The notes under the pieces: generated by a model
Database searches by the model: none
What the model saw: the letters and a program-made list of their open reading frames with translations, nothing else
Told to the model about the DNA's origin: nothing
Source of the DNA: Octopus vulgaris
Lineage: Eukaryota
DNA: 64,000 nt
Direction: 5' to 3'
NCBI GenBank assembly: GCA_951406725.2
Contig: OX597819.1
Location: 93,372,001-93,436,000 of the forward strand
In this document: positions 1,201 to 53,827 of the stretch, piece after piece
How the letters are laid out: each line of letters opens with the position of its first letter
How positions within the stretch are numbered: the first letter of the stretch is position 1
Program-made: the position numbers and the translations under genes

Positions 1201-1555
1201 AGGGTAACTCATCCCACCACCCTGCTCCCTCGCACTGTTGTCACTATACCCCCCAATCGCCCCCTCTCCACTGCCGAGCGCTCTCTCCTCAGTAGGGGAC
1301 TCCGCTTCACGCCTCTCACGCGTCACTGCGACGAATTTGAAGCTTTCAAAATGTGACCGCGTGTGTACCGTTGGCAATTTTTTTTCCTCCGTCTTCCCTT
1401 CTCTGGATCTTCCCTTTTCCTATGTTTCTGACGAAGAGCTCCGCTCGAAACGTAAAACCCTCCTTCTTCCCTTCCTGAGCGTCCAGTAATACTATATTTG
1501 TTCCACGTCCTCGCGTTGTGTTTTCTCTTGGTGTTTTCATGTTTGGATTAACTTT
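1201..1555 (+). mobile_element. Penelope-like element (Neptune-type) 3' pLTR fragment
   Basis: Pyrimidine-rich segment containing a minimal HHR (1424-1458), then TTCCTGAGCG...TAATAC, which is shared with 44000-44190 and 47827-48855. Ends in a (TA)n tract. Confidence 0.7.
1424..1458 (+). ncRNA. Minimal type-I hammerhead ribozyme
   Basis: GUUU-CUGACGA-A-GAGC(UCC)GCUC-GAAA-C-GUA-AAAC. Perfect stem I GUUU/AAAC, canonical core, 4-bp stem II, palindromic ACGU stem III, GUA cleavage triplet. Confidence 0.8.
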
Positions 1556-18878: not shown

Positions 18879-19334
18879 CCAGAGACATAGTAAATTGGAG
18901 GTAGTCTGTCCCCCGGTAGTCTGAGAGGGCTCAGAAATTTAGCTAGCCAATCATGCCGGCAACTTAAGGTGGTGGGTGCCAAAAGTACTTTTGACTTCAA
19001 GCATTGAAACCCTGTCTATGCCATGCATACATATATGTATATGTGTATGTATGTGTCTGTGTTTGTAATTGTAGTTCTGATGACGCCTGTTGAGGTAGAA
19101 ACACGTGTTCGTGACTGTCCTCTTAACTCGAGACAATGCACCAGTTAAATTCATATCAAATTTGGACAATTCTCGTGTCTTAAGATTATCTTCCCTTTCT
19201 CATACGAATATCAATTGCCATGTGTAATTGGGAGACATCCCCTAGAAGCGGATATAATTTTAATAAATCAAGAATTTATTGTTATTTATATCTATATGTA
19301 CATTCAATTATGCACTCAGACACACAAACAATAA

Positions 19335-42222: not shown

Positions 42223-42484
42223 ACGAGAGAGAGAATTTGATGTTACTCAAAGGAATCCGGAACGAGTATGATGCGGCGGGGGTAAACCAGCATATGCTGT
42301 CGGGCTCCGCTTCTGATATTGGTGGCTGCGTTCTATGCCTTGACCCGAGCTCAGGACGCGGCTAGCCTCTTTGAGCTGGGAAATGAATGGAATGCCTTGT
42401 GTGTGTCTTGTTGTGGCTACCCCTCCTAAAAAATGGTGAATAGGCCTGGGTACTTGTATATATATACATATATATATATATATA

Positions 42485-42670
42485 CTGTTGTGTCTGGGGA
42501 GAGTCATTTTCTTTTTGTGCCTCATAATGTAACACACTCACAGGTAAAATTTCCACTTAATTCTTATCTTTATTTTCGTTGCGTCTTGACTCTCCGCAGA
42601 CACAACAAAATATGCTTCAACACACGAACTCATATAAAGAATCTTGCAAACCAAATCCAAAAGCGAAATA
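42485..42670. mobile_element. Centrally deleted copy of the 52481-52805 foldback element
   Basis: Left arm TGTTGTGTCTGGGGAGAGTCATTTTC...TTTTCGTTGCGTCTTG joined directly to ACTCTCCGCAGACACAAC...AAACCAAATCCAAAAGCGAAATA, which is the reverse complement of 52481-52560. Confidence 0.8.
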
Positions 42671-49554: not shown

Positions 49555-49768
49555 GTGAAATAGAAAGATGAATAATCTTGTAGTAGATTAATCATTAGTT
49601 TAACCGATACCTTAGTAGCAAAAATCACAGCAGTAAAACAGCACGGTTGGAGGTACAACCATTTGGTGTTGCAACCGTGCGTTGGTGCGGATAATTGAAA
49701 TTAGAACATTATTGGTGAATTGAAGAAATGGAGCTGAACGCAGATTGAACAGAAATCGTTTTATTTCA

Positions 49769-49848
49769 TTCTACACGTGTTTCGAAAGGCACAAATTACC
49801 AAAATCCGATGGAATAATGGGACCATATTGTGTCTTTCTCTTCAGGAA
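49769..49848 (-). ncRNA. Hammerhead ribozyme (mirror copy)
   Basis: Reverse complement of 50029-50108. Confidence 0.75.
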
Positions 49849-50028
49849 GAAAATAGGAAATCCGTTGGAAAAACAAAAACAGAACAGAGGCGGAGCAAAA
49901 ACAAATCGAACTATGCTCCTAAGAGCCCATGGCGAAAGTTTCGCCATGGGCTCTTAGGAGCATAGTTCGATTTGTTTTTGCTCCGCCTCTGTTCTGTTTT
50001 TGTTTTTCCAACGAGATTTCCTATTTTC

Positions 50029-50108
50029 TTCCTGAAGAGAAAGACACAATATGGTCCCATTATTCCATCGGATTTTGGTAATTTGTGCCTTTCGAAACAC
50101 GTGTAGAA
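50029..50108 (+). ncRNA. Type-I hammerhead ribozyme
   Basis: UUC-CUGAAGA-GAAAGACACAA...UUGUGCCUUUC-GAAA-C-ACGU-GUA-GAA. Stem II pairs 10/11 bp, palindromic ACACGUGU stem III, GUA triplet, AAUAAA just downstream. Confidence 0.8.
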
Positions 50109-50161
50109 TGAAATAAAACGATTTCTGTTCAATCTGCGTTCAGCTCCATTTCTTCAATTCA

Positions 50162-50205
<44 letters not shown>

Positions 50206-51065: not shown

Positions 51066-52539
51066 ATACATACAGATATATTTATATAGTCAGGAACGGG
51101 AGAGGGGGCGATTTCTATGCGTGCGGATGTGTGTATAAAGACACATCTATGAATGTGTTTGTATATGCATGTGGATTTGAAGGGGGTGTCAACAGAAACG
51201 TGTGACCATTATCGATGCATTTCTCTAGGCCCTCATCTGCTGTTTTCTGGTTGTCTTTTTCTTCTCCAACATGCGATCCCCACCCTTATACCAAGCTCTT
51301 CGACTTGGGCCAATAGTCTTAGTGTCTACGTGTCTTATCTGGCAGGTAGGGCAACCACGAAAATCTCTTTTTGCTGCTACAGTTATACTATGGTTGCGAG
51401 TGAAACTACCGAGTAGGTGGAGATTTGTAGCAAGCTGAGTCAGTAACGCAGTTTCGATTTCCAATAGATGCTAATTCACTTTATGTTAAAAATGTCCTTG
51501 GAATAGTTATGAACGTCACGTATCCTTGTTTTTGCTTGTTAGCTTAGTTTTTTTTTCTTTGTTTGTTTAGTTTTTTTGTTTGTTGTTTTTGTTTTGTTTG
51601 TTTGTTTGTTTGTTTTTTCACCTTAAAAAATTCAGAGTTTAGGCATTATGGCATATACACAGTGCTTGTTAGAACTTCCTTTGTTAAAGAAAGAGTCTAA
51701 AGTTAAAGCCCAACCCAACCATCAAGACGAACACCAACCACTTCATATTCTCCATGGTCTTTCAAGGTCATAGACACAACCACCTCTTCCGGGTCAAACT
51801 ACTGAAAGGAAAAAAAATACTCTCTTCTGTGAGAGATTTGAAAAACAACACACATGTCCGTATACAAATATTTCCGTTACTTAATACAAAGCTTTCTTCT
51901 TCTTCCTTGAAACCAGCTTTTTTCACTCATCCCCAATATCTTAAAGTAAATTGTTTTAAAGACACGGCATGTTTTCTTAACATACCCTATGCTTATAAAG
52001 AATTTAGAAAATTTATTTTCATATCTCTACTCTTCATCAAGCATAATCACATAACACCCACAAGCTTTCATTGAAGAAATAACGTTTGTTTGTTTTTTTC
52101 TCTGGTGTTTTTTTTTTGTTGTTGTTGCAGAGTGAGGCTGTTCTTTTTTATTTATTTATTTTTTTTTTTTGGTGGAGTTTAGTATTAGGAAGTGGAGGAA
52201 AGGACTGAGCCTATGATCTTTGCAGGTAGAGTCGCCTTAAGGCACCACCTATACTGGGTAATTGCCTGGAAGCCTCATGGGTCCAGCGGCCCCAATTTTA
52301 ATCTAGGCATGCTGTGATATGCTGTCAATGAATAAATAAATACTAAATGACCCACTGCAGTGACGTGCGTAGGGACTTATAATGCTACTAAGGAATCTCT
52401 GTTTGTAGGTCATGATGTGTTTCGTACCTATGATGTTTTAACCGATAGATGCAATGTATAATAAAGCTATCAATTAAAAATCTATTTCGTTTTTGGATTT
52501 GGTTTGCAAGATTCTTTATGAGTTCGTGTGTTGAAACAA

Positions 52540-52805
52540 ATTCTGTTGTCTGGAGAGAGTCATTTTCTTTTTGTGCCTTATTATTTAACACACTCACCGG
52601 TAAAATTTCCACTTATTTCTTATTTTTATTTTCCTAAAATTTTCGTTGCGTCTTGCAACCTTTTCGATAAAACTATTGAAAAGGCTGCAAGACGCAACGA
52701 AAATTTTAGGAAAATAAAAATAAGAAATAAGTGGAAATTTTACCGGTGAGTGTGTTAAATAATAAGGCACAAAAAGAAAATGACTCTTCTCAGACACAAC
52801 AGAAT
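52540..52805. repeat. Foldback palindrome, ~130-bp arms, with head-to-head HHR-like motifs at the centre
   Basis: ATTCTGTTGTC...TTGCAACCTTTTCGATAA-AA-CTATTGAAAAGGCTGCAA...GACACAACAGAAT. The element extends left to about 52481. Confidence 0.9.
52673..52709 (+). ncRNA. Minimal hammerhead-like motif with U3-A8 core pair
   Basis: CUA-UUGAAAA-G-GCUGC(AAGAC)GCAAC-GAAA-A-UUU-UAG. The mirror copy 52634-52670 (minus) has the perfect stem II GUUGC/GCAAC. Confidence 0.55.
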
Positions 52806-53827
52806 AAAAATCTATTGGATCCTCGAAATACATGCGGAAAGAATGTGAGAAAGCAAACATGAATTGTATGTAGGATAGAGATTTAATCCATTGACTGGGT
52901 TAACACCTTCACTAGATCTTAAATACGATCAGCAGAATCTATTCTGTTGCAAGCATACGAGCCAAATCTATCTTGATGATAAAATTTTCCATTTCTGTTT
53001 GCAATGCATGGTAACCGCAAACAGGGTAAACGGTGCAAACATTTATACCGTGGAGTAAATGGATTTTTGCCCGTTTCGACGATGAATGTTTAGTTGTTCG
53101 AGCAACTAAACAGATATGTAAGTAGCTGAGTTTCCCACAGGCAGAATCAGGCGCGATTAGCATGACAAATCGTGTGTCAAGGTTGGCCATTTGAATTTGC
53201 ATCTGATTGATGGGCATTCACACAGTTCCCATCTACCTGGTTTCACTCATAAACAAGGCGATCCGAGGCTATTAAATGAAATTTAAAAACACACTTCCCA
53301 GGAAACCGAACCCGGAACCGCATGATTGAGAAACAAACTTCTTAACCATTCAGCTATTTTGCGTCCTTCGCTGACTAAACCAGACAAAGAATACAATCAA
53401 TGTATTTATACTCTCCCTTGAATAAAGCCACGTTATTAGAGCATGAAACCAAACATAAGACAATTAATATTTGCTTTATTAATATTTATTGAGCAATTTT
53501 GATGGCGGTTAGTATAAATAATTGAATCGGTAATTTATCAACTTAATTTATAGTTTGATCCTCAGTGTGACAAGTGCTGATTTGGTTCATGAATATTAAT
53601 TAATAGCGATGTATACTACAATAACAAGGGTATATTCCAAGAAATGTCATATCTTTAATATGGTTAAATTTTATGACCAGGCTTTATATATATTTAAAAG
53701 AGAAGCTGTACATCGTCGTAAGGTTCGACAGCAGGTGTCTTTCATATGATCATTAAATTTATATTAATATCAACACTTTAAAAGTAGACATGTTAAACCT
53801 TCTGGATATGTATGCAAGTACAAAGAC

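What the first reader, a model, noticed from the sequence alone, without database searches (positions are those of the whole stretch)
52481..52805. Second foldback: head-to-head HHRs with U3-A8 core and AAUU stem III at the symmetry axis
Seen: each arm begins exactly at stem I of an HHR-like motif, 2 nt from its mirror. The core UUGAAAA replaces the C3-G8 pair with U3-A8, and stem III ACGU is replaced by the also-palindromic AAUU, i.e. two compensatory double changes. Established: positions 3 and 8 form a Watson-Crick pair in the active hammerhead. The arms have diverged slightly, which argues against an assembly artefact. Inference: a variant ribozyme family whose inversion point is tied to the ribozyme boundary.
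Basis: partly seen in the sequence, partly recalled or inferred. Interest (0 to 1): 0.75.

Follow-up and report, generated by a model that had tools for sequence, protein, structure and literature searches.

The report
Inverted Penelope-like retrotransposon end with hammerheads
This is a short, back-to-back insertion of the tail end of a common animal jumping gene (a Penelope-like element) that carries an already described variant of the small hammerhead RNA motif; it is mostly ordinary, except that the fold-back points of its family pile up at what is likely the element's transcription start rather than at the predicted cutting site.

Summary
The foldback is real: 52487-52804, arms of about 130 nt, 12-bp target-site duplication. 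It is the 3' end of a high-copy Penelope-like element (PLE; Neptune-like RT plus C-terminal GIY-YIG; 1815 exact matches of one 30-mer). The inverted, 5'-truncated form with a tail on one arm is the published PLE pattern. The motif is a true minimal-hammerhead homologue: related families keep stems I, II, III and the 3-8 pair by double changes (U-A, C-G, G-C), and an older relative about 80% identical has the canonical core. U3-A8, an AAUU stem III and U17 are each already in print for PLE hammerheads. Corrections: AAUU is not shown to replace ACGU; each window arm carries a damaging change; the two motifs lie on opposite strands and cannot dimerise in cis. Arm starts cluster (44 of 93) 1-14 nt upstream of the core, with a sharp wall at -13 and often an extra G; only 3 of 93 start near the cleavage site. 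In other families the wall lies 22 and about 95 nt upstream, so it likely marks a capped transcription start, not the ribozyme edge. Cleavage is untested. The scan noted a similar U3-A8 PLE hammerhead in another genome.

The parts
52475..52486 (+). Left copy of a 12-bp target-site duplication; its last bases also match the element's 3' end (microhomology)
52487..52539 (-). PLE 'tail' (about +132 to +189), on the left arm only; in the sister family the homologous tail is the start of the next unit's ORF
52540..52669 (-). Left arm: 5'-truncated 3' end (pLTR) of the element, from about -2 to +131
52634..52670 (-). Left-arm hammerhead motif, with U4 changed to C (52666) and the first stem I base lost
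52670..52673 (.). Junction of the two arms (symmetry axis)
52673..52709 (+). Right-arm minimal hammerhead motif: 3-bp stem I, U3-A8 core, G9.1, 5-bp stem II with one C.A mismatch, AAUU stem III, U17 at 52706
52674..52804 (+). Right arm: 5'-truncated 3' end (pLTR) of the element, ending at +131 without tail
52805..52816 (+). Right copy of the 12-bp target-site duplication

Best explanation
The foldback is one insertion of the 3' end of a high-copy Penelope-like retrotransposon, present as two short back-to-back copies between a 12-bp target-site duplication, and the motif at the inner end of each copy is that family's minimal hammerhead, whose cleavage is untested. Likely mechanism (inferred): the element's promoter starts a capped RNA 13 nt upstream of the hammerhead core; the element's reverse transcriptase copies this uncut RNA twice from the same source, primed at the two ends of a staggered, AT-rich target cut (once at +131, once at the tail end, +189); both copies stop at or near the RNA's 5' end and are joined head to head, helped by short microhomologies. 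The hammerheads therefore meet at the axis because the motif sits at the very start of the RNA. These two copies are likely dead: each has a damaging change, and a read-through transcript would fold into one long hairpin.
For: Shown: family size (1815 exact 30-mer matches, 0 for the reversed control); link to an RT + GIY-YIG ORF (27 of 29 ORF loci other than the query hold the motif-bearing end within the fetched flanks; ORF; 184 homologues); duplication; 48 of 89 loci with an adjacent inverted arm, 45 of 48 with the tail on exactly one arm, 12 of 48 with the whole motif in both arms; arms of one insertion agree at subfamily-diagnostic sites (38 of 39, 36 of 39, 34 of 35; p below 1e-6 each). 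Hammerhead homology: same place in the pLTR of families 2 and 3 with double changes in stems and in the 3-8 pair; 0 of 20000 shuffles match the descriptor for each family (descriptor made after seeing the motifs); a pattern without stem I or III returned 191 matches against 80 for the control, and of the 30 fetched 21 had a canonical core and 13 of these a stem I of 3 bp or more. 5' wall: 44 of 93 arms start at -14..-1, 2 at -28..-15 (p 3e-11), 3 at +28..+34 around the predicted cut; family 3: 34 of 79 start at -22..-19, 2 near its cut. Extra G not in the template before the wall: 7 of 13 against 5 of 57 (p 7e-4) and 9 of 14 against 1 of 36 (p 7e-6). In print: inverted 5'-truncated copy and one-sided tail (PMC8557442); internal promoter and start site inside the pLTR (PMC2377424). 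Reading an extra 5' G as a copied cap is recalled from LINE-1 work and comes from no call.
Against: No RNA ends were seen: no raw reads were on offer, so the start site and cap rest on DNA junctions alone. By eye, 4 of the 7 G cases in this family and about 5 of the 10 in family 3 can be read as the last base of the partner arm; among copies without a partner arm the G stands in 2 of 6 and 3 of 5. Family 2 shows no sharp wall and no G excess (7 of 30 at -63..-69 or near). 3 arms of this family start at -14 with the template C. The core drifts in the big families (C9 in family 2; A3.G8 mismatch copies L378, L380, L398), stem I is only 3 bp, and the window's motif has no folding signal, so the motif may be a poorly active relic. 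No intact full-length or tandem copy of the window's own family was found among 20 longer loci. Placement in Neptune rests on motifs, not on a tree.
Confidence: 0.75

Rival explanations
1. The ribozyme structure itself sets the inversion point: reverse transcriptase stalls or switches template at stem I or at the small 4-bp hairpin just upstream of it.
For: 15 of 93 arms start at -8..-1, and at least 5 of 48 foldback junctions run through the small palindrome at -11..-2, which supplies microhomology. In families 1 and 3 the wall lies within 22 nt of the core.
Against: The sharpest peak is at -13, upstream of stem I and of the palindrome; the offset differs between families (13, 22, about 65 weakly, about 95); the extra G is not explained; a second insertion of the same family in the window joins at about +11/+113; Naiad elements form the same inversions without canonical hammerheads (PMC8557442).
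Confidence: 0.2
2. Self-cleavage makes the RNA end that is copied, so insertions and inversions begin at the cut.
For: The motif keeps the hammerhead pairing pattern across families; cleavage and circularisation are the proposed role in PMC4209133.
Against: Only 3 of 93 arms start at +28..+34 and 2 of 79 near the cut in family 3; most short copies keep the leader that cleavage would remove. This does not exclude cleavage of other transcripts.
Confidence: 0.05
3. The wall is a 3' splice site, and copies start there because an upstream intron was removed.
For: In family 3 the sequence before -20 looks like a branch point, pyrimidine tract and AG; Penelope has an intron end next to helix I (PMC4209133).
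Against: Copies keep the AG and share no upstream exon; the peak is at -22, not -20; family 1 has no pyrimidine tract before its wall.
Confidence: 0.08
4. The motif is a chance look-alike in an A-rich repeat, or the foldback is an assembly artefact or a MITE.
For: No Rfam hammerhead hit among the rows shown; no folding signal for the window copy.
Against: Covariation across families, a canonical-core relative at 81% identity, 0 of 20000 shuffles; target-site duplication, variable junctions, unequal arm ends and an RT ORF upstream.
Confidence: 0.02

Closest known systems
Minimal type I hammerheads of metazoan PLEs (Cervera and De la Pena 2014, PMC4209133)
   Same: In the pLTR; extra base between 9 and 10.1; G10.1-C11.1; palindromic 15.2-16.2; short stem I. 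Their table has a PLE row with the UUGAAAA core, 3-bp stem I and U17 (Schistosoma mansoni 4, beside a C3-G8 relative in S. japonicum) and an oyster PLE row with AAUU and U17. The text notes pairs on opposite strands 100-700 bp apart.
   Different: No row seen (part 2 of 3 of the supplement, plus passages) combines U3-A8 with AAUU; base 9.1 is G throughout this lineage, outside their consensus H though present in one row; G3-C8 (family 3) and C9 (family 2) were not in the rows seen.
Neptune-type C-terminal-endonuclease PLEs (Craig et al. 2021, PMC8557442)
   Same: RT, then a CX4CX2C linker, then GIY-YIG with two Cys and two His; tandems, inverted 5'-truncated copy, one-sided tail, (TA)n targets.
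   Different: Tail is about 56 nt, not 30-40; clade placement not tested by a tree; a sharp 5' wall with an extra G is not described in the passages read.
Penelope of Drosophila virilis (Schostak et al. 2008, PMC2377424)
   Same: Internal promoter and start site within the pLTR; inverted terminal repeats of variable size; short repeat at one or both ends.
   Different: There an intron separates the start site from the hammerhead; here the inferred start lies only 13 nt before the core.
Non-LTR retrozymes (bioRxiv 10.64898/2026.07.22.740005; part 1 of 5 read)
   Same: Short non-coding PLE-derived units with a type I hammerhead.
   Different: Retrozymes are direct tandems; this is an inverted pair, with motifs on opposite strands.

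Membership tests
Penelope-like element, C-terminal EN+ | Single ORF with RT followed by GIY-YIG endonuclease | tested here: met
   665-aa frame with YVDD and YIGET motifs; Pfam RVT_1 E 0.008 and GIY_YIG_2 E 0.013, both below the curated cut-offs; homologue P0060 passes GIY-YIG; 1312-aa intact ORF in sister family
Penelope-like element, C-terminal EN+ | pLTR from partial tandems | tested here: inconclusive
   Clear in sister family 2; no intact tandem of the window's family among 20 longer loci
Penelope-like element, C-terminal EN+ | Inverted 5'-truncated copy at the 5' end | tested here: met
   48 of 89 loci; window
Penelope-like element, C-terminal EN+ | Tail at one end only | tested here: met
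   45 of 48 foldbacks; window left arm
Neptune clade | CX2-5CxxC linker and CCHH motif | tested here: met
   Read by eye against the definitions
Neptune clade | RT tree placement (against Nematis) | not tested
Hydra clade | CxCX5C linker, CCHH absent, DKT motif | tested here: not met
   Linker is CX4CX2C, both His present, DKS in the sister ORF
Naiad/Chlamys | Endonuclease N-terminal to RT | tested here: not met
   Endonuclease is C-terminal
PLE minimal hammerhead | Core U4 G5 A6 A9 G12 A13 A14 A15.1 U16.1 with a 3-8 Watson-Crick pair | tested here: met
   Family majority and right arm; the left arm fails at U4
PLE minimal hammerhead | Stems I and II kept by compensatory changes | tested here: met
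   Double changes at 7 of 11 pairs (2.1, 2.2, 2.3, 3-8, 10.3, 10.4, 15.2) among four families, read
PLE minimal hammerhead | Extra base 9.1, G10.1-C11.1, palindromic stem III, NUH site | tested here: met
PLE minimal hammerhead | Self-cleavage (as a dimer) | not testable with these tools
   Needs an assay; no raw RNA reads

The most novel reading that the evidence does not exclude
PLE foldbacks are made by copying one capped, uncleaved RNA twice, down to its cap, and this octopus-type lineage records that in DNA (a 5' wall with a cap-derived G at -13 and -22). In the same lineage the hammerhead 3-8 pair has cycled through C-G, U-A, G-C and perhaps A-U while stems stay paired, so the fold is under selection even though cleavage does not set the copied end: the motif may act as a dimerisation or RT-binding leader rather than a cutter.
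Probability: 0.4. Interest if true: 0.55.

Novelty: new member of a known kind. Interest (0 to 1): 0.32.

Why it matters
The locus itself is one of thousands of decayed copies and its ribozyme variant is precedented. The family-level data bear on an open point (PMC8557442 calls hammerhead function in these elements unclear): short copies mostly derive from RNA that was not cut, and their 5' ends point to a start site that can be tested directly. The lineage also offers a natural series of 3-8 pairs in one scaffold for cleavage assays.

Tried and rejected
Rfam scan: only sub-threshold microRNA-hairpin matches at the locus among the 150 rows shown. One genome search used a wrong stretch (ORF, not pLTR) and was not used. 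Two-template idea (arms from unrelated copies): rejected, arms agree at diagnostic sites. Within-family conservation (core 2.5% against 6.5% elsewhere) is not used as evidence: it is confounded by base composition and subfamily sites, and copies decay neutrally. The '-2' and family-3 '-7' start peaks are partly due to private bases in the reference copy used. Sequencing runs: no RNA holder listed on record, no raw reads; contigs of four runs from four coded organisms hold the family with no covarying change in the motif above 10%; contigs of four runs guessed to be RNA showed no place where many molecules begin or end, which contigs cannot show in any case. A more distant protein query found no further family. 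Lunse et al. (dimer-cleaving PLE hammerhead variants) is not held; only its title was seen in a reference list, and it may already hold AAUU, G3-C8 or C9 variants. Supplement file 1 of PMC4209133 could not be searched. Searches that found no account of a cap-derived G or 5' wall in PLE inversions; of octopus PLE hammerheads: (listing only); of natural G3-C8: (one paper, a lab variant). These cover only the held library.

Full report
Observation. The window holds an inverted repeat with its axis at 52670-52673. The arms align over 130 and 132 nt with 2 substitutions and 3 small gaps. The left arm carries a further 53 nt (52487-52539) that the right lacks, and the whole is flanked by a 12-bp duplication at 52475-52486 and 52805-52816, so it is one insertion. 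The right arm reads as a minimal hammerhead with U3 at 52676, A8 at 52681 and U17 at 52706. Positions below count from U3 = 0; the predicted cut lies before +31. The left arm has C at position 4 and the right arm a C.A mismatch in stem II. Against the family (U4 in 59 of 59, U10.2 in 68 of 69) both changes are rare. The two motifs are on opposite strands, so a transcript through the locus holds one sense motif, paired to its own complement in a long hairpin (-203 kcal/mol).

What the repeat is. The genome is 2.8 Gb in 227 contigs; a database protein named Octopus vulgaris matches it at 100%. One 30-mer of the arm has 1815 exact matches and none for the reversed control. [quoted passage not shown] Pfam scores are weak, but 184 homologues were found, one passing the GIY-YIG cut-off. 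This is a C-terminal-endonuclease PLE, Neptune-like by motifs (passages), not placed on a tree. I sampled 93 of the first 100 listed matches, in genome order on one contig (89 loci; two share flanks). 48 of 89 loci have an adjacent inverted arm, 45 of these 48 have the tail on exactly one arm, and 12 have the whole motif in both arms like the window. PMC8557442 describes this arrangement as typical (passages).

Is the motif a hammerhead? Two sister families were found by protein search. Family 2 (62% identical, young, intact 1312-aa ORFs in tandems; 2017 anchor matches) has at the same place a C3-G8 core with C at 9, a different stem II and stem III AGAACU. Family 3 (54-58%; 4331 anchor matches) has G3-C8, a 7-bp stem I and AAUAUU. 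A relaxed descriptor, written after seeing these, hit 0 of 20000 dinucleotide shuffles for each family. A forward test followed: a pattern with the lineage's fixed bases but without stems I and III gave 191 matches against 80 for the control. Of 30 fetched, 21 had a canonical core and 13 of those a stem I of at least 3 bp (best of three stem III lengths); several are chance hits. L386 and L391 align to the window's family at 140 of 172 and 173 of 216 positions and have C3-G8 with AAUU already present. So U3-A8 is a true double change, while ACGU to AAUU is not shown. Two copies have A3-U8 and three an A3.G8 mismatch, which shows that the pair is not always kept. Across four families 7 of 11 pairs show double changes (read).

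Is it new? PMC4209133 (parts 1-2 of 4 of the text; supplement passages and part 2 of 3) reports U3-A8 in about 1,300 PLE-type motifs of Schistosoma, the 9.1 base, palindromic 15.2-16.2, opposite-strand pairs and low activity even as dimers; its table has the same UUGAAAA core with U17 and, in an oyster PLE, AAUU with U17. PMC3088659 (passages) reports natural U3-A8, known to be active in vitro, and that U4C lowers activity considerably. The variant is therefore a new member, not a new kind.

The inversion point. 44 of 93 arms start at -14..-1 (13 at -13), 3 at -62..-15, 15 further up, 10 at 0..+13, 3 at +28..+34 and 18 elsewhere downstream. In family 3, 34 of 79 arms (70 loci) start at -22..-19 and 2 near the cut. 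An extra G absent from the template precedes the wall in 7 of 13 (against 5 of 57) and 9 of 14 (against 1 of 36; one duplicate dropped). About half of these Gs could be the partner arm's last base. In the family of the window's other foldback, 4 short copies among 10 loci chosen by similarity also start at one A with a G in front, about 95 nt upstream of that family's canonical hammerhead (stem read by eye). Family 2 is mostly long copies with a loose cluster at -63..-69 and no G excess. The wall thus does not keep a fixed distance from the ribozyme. The simplest reading is a capped transcription start inside the pLTR, as mapped for Penelope (PMC2377424, passages); the cap-G reading is recalled from LINE-1. 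A small palindrome at -11..-2 adds microhomology junctions (5 found).

Mechanism, shown and inferred. Shown: PLE identity, insertion anatomy, motif homology, the 5' wall, the lack of a peak at the cut. Inferred: start site and cap at -13; two cDNAs primed at +131 and +189 on the two target ends; joining near the 5' end. Untested: any cleavage. No raw RNA reads were available.

Earlier notes of this scan: none for this genome; one from another genome on a U3-A8 hammerhead in a Hydra-clade PLE, which led me to test Hydra membership; it was not met.

Verdict. Real, explained, mostly known. Interest 0.32, carried by the family-level wall and the series of 3-8 pairs rather than by this locus.

Noticed in passing
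window 42484-42670: A second head-to-head insertion of the same family, rearranged, joined at about +11/+113 with the tail on the right arm.
   Followed up: partly
window 49710-50167 (tail extends to about 49560): The other foldback belongs to a different young PLE family (3624-bp tandems; ORF end with CxxC and CxH motifs as described for Hydra). Its canonical hammerhead with a long stem II starts near 50032 on the outward-reading strand; the inward-reading look-alike at the axis is antisense. Copies start at one A, several with an extra G.
   Followed up: partly
window 1424-1458: Canonical minimal hammerhead with ACGU stem III from another family; further core-like matches at 19077, 38689, 49060 (minus) and 57532 were not examined.
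   Followed up: no
L148:1810-6941 and L143: Family 2 is young with intact 1312-aa ORFs, yet its hammerhead has C at position 9; an older relative (L390) has A9.
   Followed up: partly
L165 near 6400; L399, L400: Family 3 has a natural G3-C8 pair; a few related copies have A3-U8 (6 similar among the first 100 listed), possibly a subfamily with the fourth Watson-Crick pair.
   Followed up: partly
families 1-3, tails: Tail length is conserved at 55-58 nt, and in family 2 the tail is the start of the ORF frame.
   Followed up: partly
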